Of a stretch of DNA of 58,678 bases, positions 40,860 to 47,336 are shown piece by piece. The first letter of the stretch is position 1. Each line of letters opens with the position of its first letter. The notes under the pieces are model-generated. The model was not told the DNA's origin, did not search any database, and saw only the letters and a program-made list of their open reading frames with translations. The stretch comes from Actinomycetes bacterium (GTDB taxonomy: Bacteria > Actinomycetota > CALGFH01), in the NCBI GenBank assembly GCA_030146615.1, contig JASLBL010000245.1:1-58678 (forward strand), in the 5' to 3' direction. Made by a program: the position numbers and the translations under genes.

Positions 40860-43800
40860 CTACCCGTCGCGGGCCGTCCTCTGCCGCCAGGCGACCACGG
40901 CGCCGGCCCCGGCGGCCAGGAGCAGCAGCGCCAGCGCCCCGCCGACCAGCCGCAGGAGCGGGGCCGGGTCGAGCCGGATCTCGGCCGGCCCGGCGGGCAG
41001 TCCGGGCACCGGCTCCGGCCGCATGGCCTGCCTCGGGACCAGGCCGAGGCGCACGGCCAGCTGGCCGAGGGCGGCCGGTCGGACGGGGCCGCCGTCGGCC
41101 GGCAGCTCCAGCACCGCCCGCTCGAACGGCTGGCGCATGGCCCCGTCCGGCATGATCTGGGGCAGGCCGAGCGGGCGCCCGAACCGGTCGCGGGCCCGCG
41201 CGAAGTCCTCGGCCGTCGCCGTCGCCGGGTCGGTGCCCAGGTAGGCGCGGGCGATCAGCTCCTCACGGAGCAGGGCCCGGGTCTGCCGGTTGGTGACCGG
41301 CGGGGCGGTCGACGGCAGCGGGATGTCGGCGTCGGCCACCGCCTCGACGTCCAGCTTGGCGAGCAGGGGCGGCAGCTCGATCGGCCGCACGGCCGGCGGG
41401 CCGCCGGCGGTCGGGACCGCCCCCAGGACCATGGTGTCGAACGCCTGGAGGGCCGGGCCGTCGCTGGTCCAGACCGACCCCAGCGGGCGGCCGAGGACGG
41501 CCTTGCCGCCGACCGACCGGTAGGCGCTGTGGAACGTGCCGGCCTGGCTGTCCACCACCCGGTAGCCGCCGCAGGCCGAGCCGGTGGTGTTGGAGAACAC
41601 CCCGTCGGGCAGCGGCAGGAGGTCGGCCACGGGGTCGAGCGGGGCGGCGTCGACGCGCCACAGCTCCACCCCGGACAGGCTGCGGGACGGGTGCGCGGCC
41701 AGCCTGGTCCCGTGCTGGCGGACCCAGGCGGCCAGCGACGGGGTCAGGGGGCCCTGGGCGGTCCCGCCGGTCAGCACGAAGTAGCGGACGCCGGCGGCGT
41801 GGGCGGCCGGCCCGCTGGAGAACTCGGTCACGGTGACGCCGGCGGCCAGCAGCCGGGCCCGGTCGTCGGGGCCGCTGGCGTTGACCGCCGAGCACTCCGG
41901 AACCTCGGCGCCGACCGTCGCCACCAGGCGCCCGAGGCCGTCGTCGGCCTGCCCTCCGTACCGGCCGGCCCAGTTGACCGCCTGGGCGGCGAGCAGCCCC
42001 ACGAGCACGACCCCGGCCCCGGCGAGGGCAGCCCGCCGGGCCTGCTGGGTGGCGCCGGCCGCGACCAGCGTCACCGCCGCCACGGCCACGGAAACGGCCG
42101 CGGCGGGCACGGCGAACGGGAGGGCCTGCTCGGCCGGGTACCCGAGGGCGATCGCGGCCAGCGCCCCGGCCGCCGAGGTCGCCGACCAGGCGAGCAGCCG
42201 GGCCGCCCCTGGGCCGGCATCCGACCTGGCGCCGGACCGGTGGCGCCAGGTCAGGATGGCGGCGGCCAGGCCGGCGGCGACCAGCAGCCAGGTCAGGGGA
42301 GCGCCGGCCAGCGACGCGGCCACCGACCCGCGCCCCTGGGGCCGGCCGAGCAGCCACCCGGCCTGCCCGGCCCCCAGGTCCTGGCCCGCCACCCAGACCG
42401 GCAGGAGCAGCCAGAGGCCGATGGCCAGCCCGAGCGCGGCCATGTCCTTCCAGGCCTCCTGGTAGCGCCCATGGAGCAGCTCGGCGACCACGGGCACGGC
42501 CAGCACCGGCAGGGCCAGCGGGCTCACCAGCAGGGCGAGCCCACCCCCGGCGGCCACCAGCGGCAGCCAGCGCAGAACCGGCCGCGCCGGCACCCCCCAG
42601 GCCAGAGCGACCGTGCCCACCGCGAGGAGCACGGCCAGCACGGTCCCGGTCGCCGCCCGTCCGCTCTGCACCACCAGCGGGTCCAGCGCCACCAGCGCCC
42701 CTGCCAGCGCCGCTCCTCCCAGCCGCCACAGCCGGCCCGGCCGTCCTCCTTGCGGCGGGGCCGGACCCGGCCCGGCCGCCGCACCGGAACCGGGCCCGAC
42801 CCGCATAAGCAGCAGGAAGAGCGCCACCGTCAGACCAACCACACCCGCCAGCAGGAACCGGCTCGGCACCCTCGCCTCCCGGACCACCGCCTCCAGCGAC
42901 CCCCCAGCCTCGGTCGCCCGCAGCCAGATCCCAGCCCCCAGCGCATACACCGGCTCGATCGGCCCAACCCTGGGGTCCTGCACCACCAGCCCGCCCCCAC
43001 TCCCCCCGGCAGCCCTCACCACCGCCACCTCACCCGCCCGGGTGTCAGCCCCGCCAGCTCCAACCCACCCGGCGGCCCCCACGGCCAGCACCGCCATGAG
43101 CAAAGCAACCACGGCGGGTCGAGCCACCCGCCCACCGGCATCCGCAGTCGGCGTCGCACCCGCCGCCGCGTCCGCCGCAACCTTCGCCCGCCGCGCTTCG
43201 TCCCGTGCCGTCCTCCGGGCCGCCCGCTCCCGAGCCGCCTCCGCCCGGGCTAGTTCCCGAGCCTCGGCCTTCGCCGCCTTGTCCTGCCGGGACTGCTCCC
43301 GCTTCACCCGGTTCTCGACAGCCTTCGCCTGAGCGGCGGCGGCCCGCTCCGCCGTACGCGCCTCGGCTTGAGCCGCCTTCACCCGCTCGGCCTCCATCTG
43401 CGCCGACTTGCGGGCCTCGGCCCTCGCCTGCGCGGCAGCGGCCCGGGCCGCCCGCCGCTCCTCCGCCTTTGCCGCTCGCACCTGCCCGGCCTCCGCACGG
43501 GCGATCCGCCGTGCCTCGGCCTCGATGGCCTTCGCCTTGGCTGCCTCCGCCTGCTCCGCCTTCCGAGCCTCGGCCTCCGCGGCCCGTGCCTGCTCGGCCT
43601 CACGACGGGCGGCCGCCTTCGCCTCCTCCTGCGCCGCCTTGGCCTGGGCGGCGGCGGCGCGGGCCGTCCGCCGCTCCTCCGCTCGGGCCGCCTTCGCCTG
43701 GCTGGCCTCCGCGCGCGCGGCCGCCTGGGCCTCGGCCTTGGCCGCCTTCGCCTGCTGGGCCTGCTGGCGGCGAACCTCGGCCTCTGCCGCCCGCTTCGCC

Positions 43801-45785
43801 TTCTCCTCTGCCCGCGCCGCCTGGCGAGCCTCGGCCTGCGCCGACCTCGCCTGCGCGGCGGCGGCCCGGTCCGTACGGCGCTCCTCGGCGCGGGCTGCCC
43901 TGGCCCGCCGGGACTCGGCACGCGCCGCCTTTCGGGCCTCGGCACGGGCCGTGCGCCGCTGGCGGGCCTCGGCGCGAGCCGCTTCCCGGACCTCGGCCCT
44001 TGCCGCCGTCGCCTGGAGCGCCTGCTCGCGCCGGACCTTGGACCCGGCCGCCCGCTTCTCCCGTGCCTGGGCCCGAGCGGCCCGCCGCTCCTCCGCCCGT
44101 GCCGATCGGGCCTGTCGCGATGCGTCCTTCCGGGCGGCCCTGGCCCGGACCGCCTCCTCGTGGGCCGCTCGACGCTCCGCGGCCCGCGCGATCTTCGCCT
44201 GACGGGATTCCTCGCGCGCGACCCGCCGCGCCTCCGCCTGCTCGGCCTTGCGCGCCTCCGCCGCGGCTGCCTCCACCCGGCGTGCCTCGTCACGAACCGC
44301 GCGACGCGCCTCCGCCTCAGCCGCCTCCGCCTGACGTGCCTCCGCGCGGGCGGCCCGTCGCGCCTCAGCCTCAGCCGCCCGGGCCTGGCGCTCCTGGTCA
44401 CGGGCGGCCCGACGGGCCTCGGTCTCAGCCGCCTGGACCCGGCGGGACTCAGCTCGGGCGGTGCGGCGCTCCTCAGCTCTGGCGGCCCTGGCCTGGCGGG
44501 ACTCGGCGCGGGCGGCCTGTCGTTCCTGTTTCCGGGCCGCCTTGGCCTGGCGGGCCTCCTCGGCGCGGGCCTGACGTTCCTCGCGGGCGATCCGGCGGGC
44601 CTCGGCCTGGGCAGCCTGGGCTTGGAGCTGCTCCTCGCGGGCGGCGGTTCGCGCGTCGGCGCGGGCCATGCGCTGGCGGCCGGCTTCCGCGCGGGCCGCC
44701 TTCCGGCTCTCAGCGCGAGCCGTCTTCTTCTGGCGGGCCAGCTCGCGGCGGGCTTCGGCCTCGGCGGCCCTGACCTGCCGGGCCGCCTGGCTCTCCGCTT
44801 CCGCGCGACGCTTCGCGGACGCCGGACTCTTCCTGCCGGCGGGCTGGCGAGCCCCCGGACCGGTCTTCCACCCGCGGAGCCGCTCGAACGTGGCCTCGTC
44901 CATCCCGGGCGCGACCTGACCCGGGCCGATCACCGGGTCCAGCTCCTGACCGCTCAGGCCGATGAGCCGTCCCGACTCGGAGACCGGCAGGCCCGGGCCC
45001 TCCACCTCGACCGCCGCGGCCGCCCCGTCCGCCTCCTCCACCGACCCGGCCGGCGGCTGGTCAGTGGCGGCCACCTCCGGGTCTGGCCGGACCTCCGGTC
45101 CAGGGGGCGGGTCCGGCTGCAACTCCGGCCCGGGGGGCGGGTCCTGATCCGGCTCGAGCTCCGGCTCGGGACTGGTCTCCACGTCGGGCTCGAGCTCCGG
45201 CGGGGTGGACTCGCCGGCCTCCTCCAGCGCCGCCTCCTGCTCCGGTGCCACCTCGTCGGTGACCCGGGTCTCGGTGGCACCGGTAACCGCCGACCAGAGC
45301 TCGCCGATCTGGAGGGGGCGGTAGAGGACGGTCCGGGGCGGGCTGGGCGGGAGGGCTTGGACGTGCTCCCCTTCCTGGAGGAGGACGACGGTGCGGCCCA
45401 GGAAGCGGCCGTCGAGGACGGCGAAGGTCCGCTCGTGGAGGGTTGGGGGCATGTCGACGATGACCACGTCGGCGTGACGGATGACGGTGTCGAGCTCCTC
45501 GCTGTACCAGTCGAGCATGCGGACCCCGCCGGGGGTCTCGATCAGGGAGCGGAGGGCGCTGGCGAGCATCTTGTCGCGGGAGACCAGGATCACCCGGAGG
45601 GCGGGGCCCTCGGGACCGGGGGCGGGCTGGCCGGCCCGTGGGCCGGAGCTCGGCAGCGAGGTGCGCTCGGGACCGTTGGAGCGGACCGGCTTGCCGGGCC
45701 CCGGCTCGGGGCGGGGTGGGGACTGCTGGGAGGTCGAGGTGGCGCGGCCACCGGCGCGCCCGGACCCACCGGGACGGTCGCTCAC
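40860..45785 (-). CDS. 1,641-aa multidomain membrane protein: pseudo-receiver, acidic Pro linker, Ala/Arg/Glu repeat helix, polytopic GT-C-like core, LGFP-like ectodomain, C-terminal anchor
   Basis: Single uninterrupted frame. GTG 45785 overlaps the sortase stop (GTGA). Recognisable protein-like segments at both ends are in the same frame as the low-complexity middle. See findings. Confidence 0.75.
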   Translation of the reverse strand: MSDRPGGSGRAGGRATSTSQQSPPRPEPGPGKPVRSNGPERTSLPSSGPRAGQPAPGPEGPALRVILVSRDKMLASALRSLIETPGGVRMLDWYSEELDTVIRHADVVIVDMPPTLHERTFAVLDGRFLGRTVVLLQEGEHVQALPPSPPRTVLYRPLQIGELWSAVTGATETRVTDEVAPEQEAALEEAGESTPPELEPDVETSPEPELEPDQDPPPGPELQPDPPPGPEVRPDPEVAATDQPPAGSVEEADGAAAAVEVEGPGLPVSESGRLIGLSGQELDPVIGPGQVAPGMDEATFERLRGWKTGPGARQPAGRKSPASAKRRAEAESQAARQVRAAEAEARRELARQKKTARAESRKAARAEAGRQRMARADARTAAREEQLQAQAAQAEARRIAREERQARAEEARQAKAARKQERQAARAESRQARAARAEERRTARAESRRVQAAETEARRAARDQERQARAAEAEARRAARAEARQAEAAEAEARRAVRDEARRVEAAAAEARKAEQAEARRVAREESRQAKIARAAERRAAHEEAVRARAARKDASRQARSARAEERRAARAQAREKRAAGSKVRREQALQATAARAEVREAARAEARQRRTARAEARKAARAESRRARAARAEERRTDRAAAAQARSAQAEARQAARAEEKAKRAAEAEVRRQQAQQAKAAKAEAQAAARAEASQAKAARAEERRTARAAAAQAKAAQEEAKAAARREAEQARAAEAEARKAEQAEAAKAKAIEAEARRIARAEAGQVRAAKAEERRAARAAAAQARAEARKSAQMEAERVKAAQAEARTAERAAAAQAKAVENRVKREQSRQDKAAKAEARELARAEAARERAARRTARDEARRAKVAADAAAGATPTADAGGRVARPAVVALLMAVLAVGAAGWVGAGGADTRAGEVAVVRAAGGSGGGLVVQDPRVGPIEPVYALGAGIWLRATEAGGSLEAVVREARVPSRFLLAGVVGLTVALFLLLMRVGPGSGAAAGPGPAPPQGGRPGRLWRLGGAALAGALVALDPLVVQSGRAATGTVLAVLLAVGTVALAWGVPARPVLRWLPLVAAGGGLALLVSPLALPVLAVPVVAELLHGRYQEAWKDMAALGLAIGLWLLLPVWVAGQDLGAGQAGWLLGRPQGRGSVAASLAGAPLTWLLVAAGLAAAILTWRHRSGARSDAGPGAARLLAWSATSAAGALAAIALGYPAEQALPFAVPAAAVSVAVAAVTLVAAGATQQARRAALAGAGVVLVGLLAAQAVNWAGRYGGQADDGLGRLVATVGAEVPECSAVNASGPDDRARLLAAGVTVTEFSSGPAAHAAGVRYFVLTGGTAQGPLTPSLAAWVRQHGTRLAAHPSRSLSGVELWRVDAAPLDPVADLLPLPDGVFSNTTGSACGGYRVVDSQAGTFHSAYRSVGGKAVLGRPLGSVWTSDGPALQAFDTMVLGAVPTAGGPPAVRPIELPPLLAKLDVEAVADADIPLPSTAPPVTNRQTRALLREELIARAYLGTDPATATAEDFARARDRFGRPLGLPQIMPDGAMRQPFERAVLELPADGGPVRPAALGQLAVRLGLVPRQAMRPEPVPGLPAGPAEIRLDPAPLLRLVGGALALLLLAAGAGAVVAWRQRTARDG
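43170..44819 (-). repeat. coding low-complexity region (aa ~323-872 of the giant protein) with units of about 70 aa (about 210 bp)
   Basis: Composition is almost only A, R, E, K, Q. AEERR recurs at aa 437, 564, 633, 702 and 774. The last three are each followed by (T/A)(D/A)RAAAAQA(R/K). Several other frames on both strands are also stop-free here. Confidence 0.85.
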
Positions 45786-46474
45786 CGGGCCACCCCCTCG
45801 CCGTCGGGGACTCTGGTCGCCGAGACGACCAGGTTGTCGCGGTAGCTGCGGCTAGCCCGGTCGAAGGTGCCGGCGCAGGTGATCAGGCGCAGCACCGGGG
45901 CGGTTGTTGCGCCGTAGACAGCCTCGGACGGCAGCGACTGCTTGGGGTAGCTGGCCAGCGCGTCGACCTTGAACCTGACCACCCGGCGGTCGGCCCGGAC
46001 CACCTGGATCTGGTCGCCGGGGCGCAGCTCGCGCAGCCGGTAGAACACGGCCGGTCCGGTCCGGGAGTCGACATGGCCGGCGATCACCGCCGGGCCCAGC
46101 TGGCCGGGCTGGGGAGCGCCGGTGAACCAGCCGGCGGCCTGGAAGTCGCCGGGGACCTCCATGCTCCGGTCGGGGTCGAGCCCGAGCCGGACCAGGGGCG
46201 AGGACACGCCGATGGCGGGGATCTCGACCCGCACCGGGGGCGAGGGCGGCAGGCGCCGCCAGGACCCGACCGGGAAGTCGATGACCTCGGTGGAGCGGGT
46301 CGGGCTGGCCGCCGGCTGGGTGCTGGCGGCCCCGGCGACCGCGGAACGGCTGGCCGGGGGCGCGGCGTGCGACACCCGCTCCCCCGCTGGCCGGGCGCCG
46401 GCGCAGCCGGCCGCGCCAGTGACCACCAGACTCAGCACGACCACCCCCCGGCGGATCCTGTCTTCCCTGGTCAT
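45782..46474 (-). CDS. sortase family protein (class F-like), lipoprotein-type signal
   Basis: LSLVVTGAAGCAG lipobox. Catalytic His in VIAGHVD, Cys in LRLITCAG, Arg in RDNLVVSA. Confidence 0.8.
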   Translation of the reverse strand: MTREDRIRRGVVVLSLVVTGAAGCAGARPAGERVSHAAPPASRSAVAGAASTQPAASPTRSTEVIDFPVGSWRRLPPSPPVRVEIPAIGVSSPLVRLGLDPDRSMEVPGDFQAAGWFTGAPQPGQLGPAVIAGHVDSRTGPAVFYRLRELRPGDQIQVVRADRRVVRFKVDALASYPKQSLPSEAVYGATTAPVLRLITCAGTFDRASRSYRDNLVVSATRVPDGEGVAR

Positions 46475-46490
46475 GACATCCCGGCGGTCC

Positions 46491-47336
46491 CTAGCCGCTC
46501 GACCGCCGCTGCTGGACGACGAACCCGGTGGTGGCGGCCAGGCCGAGGCCGATCAGCAGGAGCAGCGCGAACCTGCGCCCGCCGCGGCTGGGGCTGGGAG
46601 CGGTCCCGCCCGCCCCGGTGGCCACCCCGCCGGCGGCGGACACCGCGGCGGCCGCGTCGCTGATGTCGAGCAGCTGGAGCTTCTCGCCGATGCCGCCCAC
46701 CGCGACCAGCGACGAGATGGAGCCGCTGGCCAGCTTGACGTTGTCGGACTTGGCCAGGACCTCGCCGGTGCCGGTCTTGCGGACCTCGACGTCGACCGAG
46801 CCCGCCTCGACCTCCTGGTAGTCGCTGGCCGACGGGAACTTGGCGTTGGCGATGAGCACGTCGCCGCCCGTGACCAGGTCCACCGCGCTCTCGCCGGGGA
46901 TGGCCTGGATCAGCCTGACCTTGCTCTTGCTGCCGGCGGGTCGGGACATGTCGTCGGTCAGCAGCGCCGCCTCGACGGAGGTGAGCTGCCCGAACACCGC
47001 GACCGTGTAGGCCTTGCCGGCCGCCAACTCGACGGTGGCCGCGATCACCGGGGGCGAGTTCGCCGGCTCGCCGGCCTCGCGCACCTCGACCTTGAACTTC
47101 CCCGGCTTGACCTTGAGGTAGTCCGAGACGGTCTTGAACGGCACGCCCTTGAGCTGGAGCCGGCCGTTGACGTAGACGACGTAGACGTCGCCCTTGAGCA
47201 ACCCTGGGGCGAAGTGGGCCACCCGGACCAGCGATTCCTCCCCAGCTTGGGCACCGGCGGCGGCCGTCCCGGGCATGGCCAGCATGGCCGCTGTCATTGC
47301 GGCCAGGACCACGGCGGCCAGTCGTCGGCGTTGCAT
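46491..47336 (-). CDS. DUF4397 domain protein, secreted, with C-terminal hydrophobic anchor
   Basis: ATG 47336 is preceded by GAGGAGGGG. Signal peptide AAVVLAAMTAAMLAMPGTAAAGA. Two DUF4397-like repeats (LVRVAHFAPG..DVYV.V.G.. and VRLIQAIPG..VDLV). Tail: GGRRFALLLLIGLGLAATTGFVVQQRRSSG. Confidence 0.75.
   Translation of the reverse strand: MQRRRLAAVVLAAMTAAMLAMPGTAAAGAQAGEESLVRVAHFAPGLLKGDVYVVYVNGRLQLKGVPFKTVSDYLKVKPGKFKVEVREAGEPANSPPVIAATVELAAGKAYTVAVFGQLTSVEAALLTDDMSRPAGSKSKVRLIQAIPGESAVDLVTGGDVLIANAKFPSASDYQEVEAGSVDVEVRKTGTGEVLAKSDNVKLASGSISSLVAVGGIGEKLQLLDISDAAAAVSAAGGVATGAGGTAPSPSRGGRRFALLLLIGLGLAATTGFVVQQRRSSG

What the first reader, a model, noticed from the sequence alone, without database searches (positions are those of the whole stretch)
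45782..47336. DUF4397 protein and class F-like sortase translationally coupled to the giant gene; no canonical LPXTG substrate signal
Three minus-strand genes are packed tightly. The DUF4397 stop is followed 16 nt later by the sortase ATG, and the sortase stop overlaps the giant-gene GTG (GTGA).
The DUF4397 protein ends in ...GGVATGAGGTAPSPSRGGRRFALLLLIGLGLAATTGFVVQQRRSSG. This is a hydrophobic span plus basic tail, as in a cell-wall sorting signal, but there is no LPXTG/LAXTG; the nearest thing is GVATG. The giant protein also ends in a hydrophobic span plus basic tail (…LPAGPAEIRLDPAPLLRLVGGALALLLLAAGAGAVVAWRQRTARDG).
The substrate motif of this sortase and its relation to the putative glycosyltransferase-like giant protein are therefore open. 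The trio could be an envelope-assembly module.
Basis: partly seen in the sequence, partly recalled or inferred. Interest (0 to 1): 0.6.

Follow-up and report, generated by a model that had tools for sequence, protein, structure and literature searches.

The report
Class F sortase with private substrate
A small surface protein and the sortase gene right after it form a gene pair found across Actinomycetota; the protein's odd "GVATG" tail is a conserved, database-listed but never tested anchoring signal, and the giant gene downstream is only a recent neighbour.

Summary
Three tightly packed minus-strand genes are present: DUF4397 (46491-47336), a 16-nt gap, a class F sortase (45782-46474), and a GTGA overlap into a 1641-aa ORF (40860-45785).

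"GVATG" is not a near-miss. It is the core of a conserved signal, G-G-[VI]-x-[TA]-G-x-G-G-[TA], followed by a TM helix and a basic tail. NCBIfam models this signal as NF058571 GVDTG_CTERM; the window's copy scores below its cut-off.

- The signal sits on the gene just upstream of a class F sortase in 52 of 72 loci from four actinobacterial classes. It occurs in 0.5% of control ORF tails.
- In this genome, five of the six class F sortases have one such partner directly upstream. The sixth has a TM-less variant.
- Nothing else in the genome carries the signal, and the giant protein's tail does not match it.

The giant protein's C-terminal half has a GT-C glycosyltransferase fold. It follows the sortase only within this genus. 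One congener keeps it while the pair has decayed, and other genera have it without a sortase.

So the pair is an autonomous sortase-substrate cassette, and the "trio module" idea is weakly supported. The cleavage site and the acceptor are inferred, not shown.

The parts
46491..47336 (-). DUF4397 surface-protein gene (281 aa), the predicted sortase substrate
   Evidence: PF14344 133.8 bits, two domains. AF2 model pLDDT 81.8 shows two beta-sandwiches (res 35-128 and 137-228), a disordered linker (232-250) and a terminal helix (254-279). The closest solved fold is the extracellular domain of PepT1/PepT2, target-normalised TM 0.69-0.73.
47244..47336 (-). N-terminal Sec-type signal peptide (about res 1-31, MQRRRLAAVVLAAMTAAMLAMPGTAAAGAQA)
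   Evidence: Read from the sequence. Basic n-region, hydrophobic core and Ala-rich end; the same layout is seen in orthologues. No signal-peptide predictor was run.
46599..46631 (-). Sorting motif G236-G-V-A-T-G-A-G-G-T-A246 (GVDTG type)
   Evidence: G241 and G243 are invariant. G236, G244 and A246 are conserved at 90% or more in 30 sortase-adjacent DUF4397 proteins. NF058571 gives 18.4-23.3 bits. The motif lies in the disordered linker of the model.
46494..46571 (-). C-terminal TM helix (res 256-274) and basic tail QQRRSSG
   Evidence: Sequence. Predicted helix 254-279. Aligns with the TM and basic part of NF058571.
46475..46490 (-). 16-nt spacer between the DUF4397 stop and the sortase start
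45782..46474 (-). Class F sortase gene (230 aa), with an N-terminal lipobox-like signal (VVTGAAG-C24) and a catalytic domain at res 74-221
   Evidence: NF033748 194.7 bits, above the 166 cut-off. H134 and C200 are invariant in 81 class F sortases; R212 is present here. Congeners have LAGC or SAGC at the lipobox position.
45782..45785 (-). GTGA overlap of the sortase stop and the giant-gene start
40860..45785 (-). 1641-aa membrane protein. It has an N-terminal cytoplasmic part, an Ala/Arg/Glu-rich repeat region of several hundred residues, a GT-C-fold polytopic core (about res 884-1276), an ectodomain (about 1283-1605) and a terminal TM anchor. It is a neighbour of the cassette, not a demonstrated part of it.
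   Evidence: No direct Pfam or NCBIfam hit. It is 31-38% identical over 80-90% of its C-terminal half to roughly 1270-aa flippase-GT-C fusion proteins; 9 of 29 of these hit PMT_2 and 10 of 29 hit Polysacc_synt. AF2 pLDDT is 84.8. The top Foldseek matches are STT3, AftA, ArnT, ALG9/12, PglB, EmbB and Pmt4.

Best explanation
DUF4397 and the sortase form a self-contained substrate-plus-dedicated-sortase cassette.

**Proposed mechanism**
1. The DUF4397 precursor is exported by Sec. It carries two Ig-like beta-sandwich domains.
2. It is held in the membrane by its C-terminal helix and basic tail. This presents the flexible linker motif A-G-G-V-A-T-G-A-G-G-T-A to the neighbouring sortase.
3. The sortase is class F and membrane- or lipid-anchored, with active-site residues H134 and C200.
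4. By analogy with LPXT|G, the enzyme is expected to cleave within the V-A-T|G core and form a thioacyl intermediate.
5. It would then transfer the protein to an amine acceptor, most likely the peptidoglycan precursor, leaving the protein covalently bound to the wall.

**Shown here**
- The gene arrangement and the family memberships.
- Conservation of the motif and its near-exclusive association with class F sortase genes.
- The one-substrate-per-sortase pattern in this genome.

**Inferred**
- That the sortase processes this protein at all.
- The scissile bond, the acceptor, and the biological role of the surface protein.

**The giant gene**
- The downstream 1641-aa GT-C-fold protein is probably co-transcribed in this lineage.
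- It is an evolutionarily separate envelope gene, not an obligate partner.
For: **Class and active site**
- NF033748 scores 194.7 bits. H134 and C200 are invariant in 81 sequences.

**The tail matches a curated model**
- The tail matches NCBIfam NF058571 GVDTG_CTERM, and so do the tails upstream of four other class F sortases in the same genome: 23.3, 37.4, 18.4, 15.8 and 27.9 bits.

**Association across the phylum**
- I examined 80 class F sortase loci from Actinomycetes, Acidimicrobiia, Thermoleophilia and Nitriliruptoria. Of these, 72 have enough upstream sequence.
- In 52 of the 72, the upstream same-strand gene ends in G-x-x-[TA]-G-x-G-[GS]. The control rate is 22 of 4742 ORF tails.
- 35 loci have a DUF4397 partner, and all 35 carry the motif.
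- With the curated model in 41 relatives, 28 of 31 motif-covering hits lie directly upstream of a class F sortase hit on the same strand.

**One partner per sortase in this genome**
- A tail HMM finds exactly five hits at E < 0.01. Each lies 150-236 nt from a class F sortase domain hit.
- The DUF4397 gene on contig C254 has no adjacent sortase and no such tail.

**Fusions**
- In two loci (L042, L065), DUF4397, tail and sortase are read as one ORF with a consistent membrane topology.

**Structure and alternative sorting enzymes**
- The motif lies in a disordered linker between the last beta-sandwich and the TM helix.
- The genome has a separate class E sortase and L[PA]FTG proteins, and no exosortase.

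**Literature**
- PMC13251363 independently notes that genes next to srtF1 and srtF4 of Actinoplanes missouriensis encode proteins with a signal peptide, a TM helix and a basic tail that "may encode substrates".
Against: - There is no biochemical or genetic evidence for any GVDTG-type signal.
- The only characterised class F enzyme, P. acnes SrtF, uses LPXTG (PMC8225981).
- The quadruple class F sortase mutant of A. missouriensis showed no phenotype in the assays used.
- The window's tail scores below the curated cut-off of NF058571: 18.4-23.3 bits against 29.
- The canonical sortase Arg (R212 here) is kept in only 46 of 80 class F sequences. N214 (78/79) and Y211 (80/80) are the conserved residues. 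The chemistry or substrate binding may therefore differ from the textbook triad.
- 20 of the 72 loci showed no motif with my regular expression. Several are visibly variant forms, and others have no partner upstream.
Confidence: 0.75

Rival explanations
1. The tail is only a C-terminal membrane anchor. The glycine-rich stretch is a flexible stalk, and the adjacent sortase works on classical LPXTG/LAXTG proteins encoded elsewhere, as P. acnes SrtF does.
For: P. acnes SrtF uses LPXTG. The genome does encode L[PA]FTG-tailed proteins. The window's tail is below the NF058571 cut-off.
Against: A mere stalk would not keep G-G-[VI]-x-[TA]-G-x-G-G across four classes of Actinomycetota, with G241 and G243 invariant. 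It would also not be found almost only beside class F sortases. A class E sortase is present for the L[PA]FTG set. Six class F sortases, each with one partner, argue for private substrates.
Confidence: 0.1
2. The sortase does process the tail, but not to anchor the protein to peptidoglycan. It may release the protein from the cell as a processing protease. It may polymerise DUF4397 units, as class C sortases do. Or it may join the protein to another acceptor, such as a glycan or a protein.
For: One-to-one dedicated pairing is typical of pilin-specific and other specialised sortases. The canonical Arg is poorly conserved in the family. A TM-less substrate family with an N-terminal lipid or TM anchor exists. 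Substrate-sortase fusions exist.
Against: No pilin-type Lys motif or second subunit gene was seen in the cassette. Only one substrate gene accompanies each sortase. The default sortase chemistry in monoderm Actinomycetota is wall anchoring.
Confidence: 0.12
3. DUF4397, sortase and the giant GT-C protein are one functional envelope-assembly module. For example, the GT-C protein could make or hold the acceptor to which DUF4397 is attached.
For: Start and stop codons overlap, and there is no terminator between the genes. Both products act in the envelope. Synteny is kept in several members of the genus. The giant protein's ectodomain weakly resembles the LGFP wall-binding domain of a C. glutamicum mycoloyltransferase (E = 0.03).
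Against: Of the 80 class F loci, only the four from this genus have the giant gene downstream. Giant homologues in other genera of the family (genomes G011, G014, G018) have no sortase next to them. Congener G005 keeps an intact giant gene beside a decayed sortase and no DUF4397. Distant homologues are fused to Wzx-type flippases instead.
Confidence: 0.1

Closest known systems
NCBIfam NF058571 (GVDTG_CTERM, 'GVDTG sorting domain-containing protein') paired with NF033748 class F sortases
   Same: The tripartite tail is the same: a glycine-rich motif with a T-G core, a TM helix and basic residues. The gene sits directly upstream of a class F sortase. A paralogous DUF4397 tail in the same genome passes the cut-off at 37.4 bits.
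   Different: The window's tail has Ala instead of Asp (GVATG). It lacks the Pro three residues before the GG and has an Arg-rich spacer (SRGGRR) before the helix. It scores 18.4-23.3 bits against a cut-off of 29. I found no publication or experiment behind the model.
Propionibacterium (Cutibacterium) acnes SrtF, the only characterised class F sortase (Di Girolamo et al. 2019, as cited in PMC8225981 and PMC13251363)
   Same: It is assigned to the same sortase class in the literature. It is a Cys transpeptidase.
   Different: It is reported to use LPXTG and to act as a housekeeping enzyme. Here each enzyme has one private non-LPXTG partner. I did not compare the sequence itself.
Actinoplanes missouriensis srtF1/AMIS_11010 and srtF4/AMIS_36440 (PMC13251363)
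   Same: A class F sortase gene lies next to a gene for a protein with a signal peptide, a C-terminal TM helix and a basic tail. The authors suggested these proteins may be substrates. An Actinoplanes sp. locus in my set (L105) has a DUF4397 partner ending in GGVATGEGGTA.
   Different: The authors found no pentapeptide and did not analyse these genes. The quadruple srtF mutant had no phenotype in their assays. I did not inspect the A. missouriensis sequences.
Class E sortases with LAXTG substrates (Streptomyces SrtE1/2 and chaplins)
   Same: Actinobacterial wall-anchoring transpeptidases. One class E enzyme is present in this genome, together with L[PA]FTG-tailed proteins.
   Different: One housekeeping enzyme serves many dispersed substrates and uses a Leu-based pentapeptide. 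NF033747 gives only 28 bits for the window's sortase.
GT-C glycosyltransferases (ArnT, AftA, EmbB, PglB/STT3, PMT), for the giant protein only
   Same: The predicted fold of residues 880-1641 matches them (Foldseek probability 1.0, TM 0.33-0.53). Homologues carry PMT_2. The GPD and E of the first outer loop are conserved.
   Different: There is no direct Pfam hit. The Asp of the conserved 'YDE' is Gly (AGE), and the 'LLTxE' Glu is lost in this clade. About 880 extra N-terminal residues and a terminal TM anchor are present.

Membership tests
Class F sortase (NCBIfam NF033748) | Whole-protein score above the curated cut-off (166 bits) | tested here: met
   194.7 bits. Class E scores 28.2, class GN 32.3 and class D no more than 18 bits.
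Class F sortase (NCBIfam NF033748) | Catalytic His and Cys (TxxTC-type) of the sortase fold | tested here: met
   H134 (GHVDS) is kept in 81/81 class F sequences and C200 (LITC) in 80/80. Both align with the His and Cys of the solved class E and class D sortases 5utt and 4d70.
Class F sortase (NCBIfam NF033748) | Third triad residue (Arg at the start of the strand after the Cys) | tested here: inconclusive
   R212 (YRDN) is present in the window's enzyme, but only 46/80 family members keep it. N214 (78/79) and Y211 (80/80) are the conserved residues. No residue-level structural superposition was available.
GVDTG C-terminal sorting domain (NCBIfam NF058571) | Score above the curated cut-off (29 bits) | tested here: not met
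   18.4 bits for the whole protein, 23.3 for the tail alone and 22.9 in the genome search. The paralogue on contig C681 scores 36-37 bits.
GVDTG C-terminal sorting domain (NCBIfam NF058571) | Tripartite tail: G-x-x-T-G-x-G-G motif, hydrophobic helix, basic end | tested here: met
   GGVATGAGGTA (res 236-246), a helix at 254-279 and the end QQRRSSG. The match covers model positions 3-44 of 44.
GVDTG C-terminal sorting domain (NCBIfam NF058571) | Encoded next to a class F sortase | tested here: met
   A 16-nt gap here. 28 of 31 motif-covering hits in 41 genomes are adjacent to a class F sortase.
GVDTG C-terminal sorting domain (NCBIfam NF058571) | Cleavage and transpeptidation by the sortase | not testable with these tools
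   No experiment was found in the literature searched.
LPXTG cell-wall anchor (TIGR01167) | LPXTG-type pentapeptide and a model score of at least 15.9 bits | tested here: not met
   7.9 bits, and only the TM part matches. There is no L-P/A-x-T-G in the tail.
DUF4397 (Pfam PF14344) | Score above the gathering threshold (30.6 bits) | tested here: met
   133.8 bits, two copies. The model shows two beta-sandwiches.
GT-C glycosyltransferase (giant protein) | Polytopic GT-C fold | tested here: met
   AF2 pLDDT 84.8. The top 20 Foldseek PDB matches are all GT-C enzymes.
GT-C glycosyltransferase (giant protein) | Direct profile match (for example PMT_2, PF13231) | tested here: not met
   No Pfam or NCBIfam hit for the protein or its parts. 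Only 9 of 29 homologues hit PMT_2.
GT-C glycosyltransferase (giant protein) | Acidic catalytic residues in the first outer loop | tested here: inconclusive
   D35 and E40 of the GPD...E stretch (numbered on the 762-aa query of alignment A3; D914 and E919 of the protein) are conserved. The Asp of 'YDE' is Gly, and the 'LLTxE' Glu is absent in this clade.

The most novel reading that the evidence does not exclude
Class F sortases may not be LPXTG enzymes with odd neighbours. They may be a separate sorting system in which each enzyme has one private substrate marked by G-G-V-x-T-G-x-G-G. That system could have altered active-site chemistry (conserved Y-x-D-N instead of the canonical Arg) and possibly a non-peptidoglycan acceptor. 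In this genus, the cassette's translational coupling to a GT-C-fold protein with a wall-binding-like ectodomain could mean that the DUF4397 protein is attached to, or positioned by, a glycan or complex made by that protein.
Probability: 0.08. Interest if true: 0.8.

Novelty: new member of a known kind. Interest (0 to 1): 0.4.

Why it matters
- Class F is the largest sortase class in high-GC Gram-positive bacteria, yet it has no assigned natural substrates apart from one LPXTG-using enzyme.
- A 2026 genetic study of all four class F sortases of Actinoplanes found no phenotype. It set aside the neighbouring genes because no pentapeptide was seen (PMC13251363).
- This locus and its roughly 50 relatives show a conserved non-LPXTG signal that is almost exclusive to genes next to class F sortases. 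That gives a concrete peptide and protein to test.
- The point is already captured by an NCBIfam model, so this window adds a further, sub-threshold example rather than a new principle.
- The comparative data also separate the cassette from the giant GT-C gene, which prevents an over-reading of the operon.

Tried and rejected
**Giant protein as a second sortase substrate: rejected**
- Its tail matches only the TM part of the tail models.
- The 'RLDTGP' seen just before the helix in three congeners is 'RLDPAP' here and 'RIEPGP' in genome G009. It is absent in distant homologues.

**DUF4397-giant fusion protein P0192 (Pfam DUF4397, 1309 aa): rejected**
- Its sequence is a read-through of DUF4397, a frameshifted sortase and the giant gene. 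It is a gene-call or assembly artefact.

**Another sorting enzyme (exosortase or archaeosortase): rejected**
- None is present in the genome.

**Searches that found nothing or too little**
- Sequence search of the sortase against PDB: no hit with one sequence. The six-sequence profile gave only weak class E and class D hits. The third catalytic residue could therefore not be mapped.
- Pfam on the non-DUF4397 partners from contigs C175 and C615: no families.
- Pfam on the N-terminal 162 aa of the giant protein: no receiver-domain hit. The 'pseudo-receiver' reading remains untested here.
- Literature search for 'GVDTG': only unrelated papers.

**Tool failures**
- The genome search with the full 1641-aa protein failed. 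It was repeated with the C-terminal half.


Full report
**1. What is in the sequence**

The window is a 73% G+C contig (C155) of a roughly 90%-complete metagenome-assembled genome of an uncultured Actinomycetes bacterium. Three genes lie head to tail on the minus strand.
- The DUF4397 gene occupies 46491-47336. Its ATG follows a GGAGG, and orthologues start at the same M-(Q/L)RRR.
- After 16 nt comes a 230-aa sortase gene (45782-46474).
- The sortase TGA overlaps the GTG of a 1641-aa ORF (40860-45785) as GTGA.
- Third-position G+C stays at 0.85-0.90 from that GTG, and the next in-frame starts would truncate the first conserved domain.
- No terminator-like site separates the genes.

**2. Identity of the two small genes**

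Pfam gives DUF4397 at 133.8 bits in two copies, and a Sortase domain. NCBIfam places the sortase in class F at 194.7 bits (cut-off 166). Every other class scores 32 bits or less.

Across 81 class F sequences, H134 and C200 are invariant. The position of the textbook Arg (R212, in Y-R-D-N) holds Arg here but in only 46 of 80 sequences. Y211 and N214 are nearly invariant.

The sortase N-terminus (VVTGAAG-C24) looks like a lipoprotein signal. Congeners have LAGC or SAGC there, and about a third of class F sortases show a lipobox.

**3. The tail**

The same NCBIfam scan gave an unexpected hit. The last 43 residues of the DUF4397 protein match NF058571, 'GVDTG sorting domain', at 18.4 bits (cut-off 29).

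The genome has six class F sortases. The gene directly upstream of five of them ends in the same kind of tail:

| Contig | Tail motif |
|---|---|
| C155 (window) | GVATGAGGTA |
| C681 | GIATGAGGTA |
| C41 | GIDTGAGGTT |
| C615 | RIDTGQGGTA |
| C497 | RVDAGFGGVA |

Each motif is followed by a TM helix and basic residues. All five tails hit NF058571. One passes the cut-off (37.4 bits) and one nearly does (27.9 bits).

The sixth partner (C175) ends ...LPAGGSKTGGGGTAHVHP, with no helix.

A profile built from tails of other genomes finds exactly these five in the whole genome at E < 0.01, and nothing else with the motif. The giant protein's tail scores E = 1.4.

The only DUF4397 gene without an adjacent sortase (contig C254) has no such tail.

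**4. Beyond this genome**

I examined 80 class F sortase loci from named and unnamed Actinomycetes, Acidimicrobiia, Thermoleophilia and Nitriliruptoria. Of these, 72 have enough upstream sequence.
- In 52 of the 72, the upstream same-strand gene ends in G-x-x-[TA]-G-x-G-[GS]. The stricter form is present in 43.
- The control rates in this genome's ORF tails are 22 of 4742 for the loose form and 2 of 4742 for the strict form.
- 35 loci have a DUF4397 partner, among them Geodermatophilus, Blastococcus, Modestobacter, Amycolatopsis, Kineococcus, Asanoa and Actinoplanes. All 35 carry the motif.
- In their alignment the consensus is P-x-G-G-V-x-T-G-x-G-G-T-A, with two invariant Gly.

With the curated model instead of my own pattern, 28 of 31 motif-covering hits in 41 related genomes lie immediately upstream of a class F sortase hit.

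In two loci (L042, L065), DUF4397, tail and sortase form one open frame. Its topology keeps both domains outside the cell.

The structure model places the motif in a disordered linker between the second beta-sandwich and the terminal helix. The two-lobed fold is closest to the extracellular domain of PepT1/PepT2. That indicates a tandem Ig-like surface module but says nothing about function.

**5. Mechanism**

The best reading is a private substrate-sortase pair: Sec export, retention by the C-terminal helix, recognition of the glycine-rich motif, cleavage at the T|G core by Cys200, and transfer to a wall precursor.

Only the association is shown. Cleavage, bond and acceptor are inferred by analogy with LPXTG sortases.

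The genome also has one class E sortase and several L[PA]FTG-tailed proteins, which form the classical system. It has no exosortase.

**6. The giant gene**

It has no Pfam or NCBIfam hit.

Its C-terminal 686 residues are 31-38% identical over 80-90% of their length to roughly 1270-aa proteins, for example from Pseudonocardia kunmingensis. Those proteins join a Wzx-type flippase to a PMT_2-type domain.

A model of residues 880-1641 has pLDDT 84.8. It matches only GT-C glycosyltransferases at the top of the PDB search, and weakly the LGFP-type C-terminal domain of a C. glutamicum mycoloyltransferase.

Two conserved acidic positions of the flippase-fused relatives are changed in this clade: YDE becomes AGE, and the Glu of LLTxE is lost. 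The GPD and E of the first outer loop are kept. Catalytic competence is therefore open.

The terminal helix plus basic end is also present in homologues far from any sortase.

**7. Is the trio a unit?**

- The giant gene follows the sortase only in this genus: L032-L035 and genomes G001, G004 and G009.
- In other genera of the family, its homologue stands alone.
- In congener G005 the giant gene is intact. Between it and the conserved upstream kinase gene lie only two fragments of the sortase (residues 88-138 and 201-225) and no DUF4397. That genome's other DUF4397 genes are at most 47% identical.

The pair was therefore lost without the giant gene. Coupling in this lineage is real at the sequence level, but the functional link is not supported.

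**8. Literature and novelty**

- Reviews list P. acnes SrtF (LPXTG) as the only studied class F enzyme.
- The 2026 Actinoplanes study deleted all four class F genes without finding a phenotype. It noted neighbouring genes with a signal peptide, a TM helix and a basic tail but 'no pentapeptide'.
- 'GVDTG' appears in no relevant paper.

The signal is thus known to database curators but is untested and absent from the literature I could search. This locus is a further, sub-threshold member of that kind.

Earlier notes of this scan report the same pairing in other genomes. I treated them as leads and re-derived the evidence here.

**9. Limits**

- There is no residue-level structural comparison of the sortase.
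- The motif counts depend on simple ORF calling in high-GC DNA.

Noticed in passing
L042:744-2189 and L065:5017-6438 (class F sortase loci from two Actinomycetota metagenome-assembled genomes): DUF4397 domains, the GG[VA]xTGxGG tail with its TM helix, a second hydrophobic segment and the class F sortase domain are read as one uninterrupted ORF (482 and 474 aa from the first aligned residue). This would be a substrate-sortase fusion with a consistent topology, unless a stop codon was lost to assembly error.
   Followed up: partly
Own genome contig C175:18647-20446 (minus strand); also L058, L060, L071, L073, L111: A second family of class F sortase partners (about 430-490 aa, helical, no Pfam hit) ends in ...GG(A/S)(Q/K/A)TGGGG(T/M)A plus 1-6 residues, with no C-terminal TM helix. 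Most have an N-terminal lipobox or TM anchor instead. Membrane retention may therefore come from the other end of the protein.
   Followed up: partly
Alignment of 81 class F sortases (window sortase residues 196-214; window 45833-45889): The canonical sortase Arg position (R212) holds Arg in only 46 of 80 sequences. Y211, N214, D205 and R196 (in L-R-L-x-T-C) are 96-100% conserved. This suggests a modified active-site arrangement in class F.
   Followed up: partly
window 46403-46474 (sortase N-terminus): The sortase begins with a lipoprotein-like signal (…VVTGAAG-C24; LAGC or SAGC in congeners). About a third of the class F sortases examined have a lipobox rather than a plain signal-anchor helix.
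   Followed up: partly
L025:5892-6101 (congener genome G005, between the PdtaS-like kinase gene and the giant gene): Two short fragments of the sortase gene (residues 88-138 and 201-225) remain, and the DUF4397 gene is gone. This is recent decay of the cassette beside an intact giant gene.
   Followed up: yes
window 40860-43148 (giant protein residues 880-1641): Distant homologues of this GT-C-fold half are fused to a Wzx-type flippase (PF01943) instead of the cytoplasmic N-terminal part and the charged repeat. In the window's clade the conserved 'YDE' reads 'AGE' and the 'LLTxE' Glu is lost.
   Followed up: partly
Own genome contigs C511, C404, C409, C5, C223 (ORF tails listed) and C398:3893-4495: Classical L[PA]FTG tails with a TM helix and basic end, plus a single class E sortase (188.9 bits). 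A conventional sorting system coexists with the six class F pairs.
   Followed up: no
Protein P0192 (1309 aa, from the protein collection): A database protein carrying a DUF4397 Pfam hit and 57% identity to the giant protein is a read-through of DUF4397, an out-of-frame sortase and a short giant gene that lacks the long Ala/Arg/Glu repeat. It is an annotation or assembly artefact, and it also shows the trio in another relative.
   Followed up: yes
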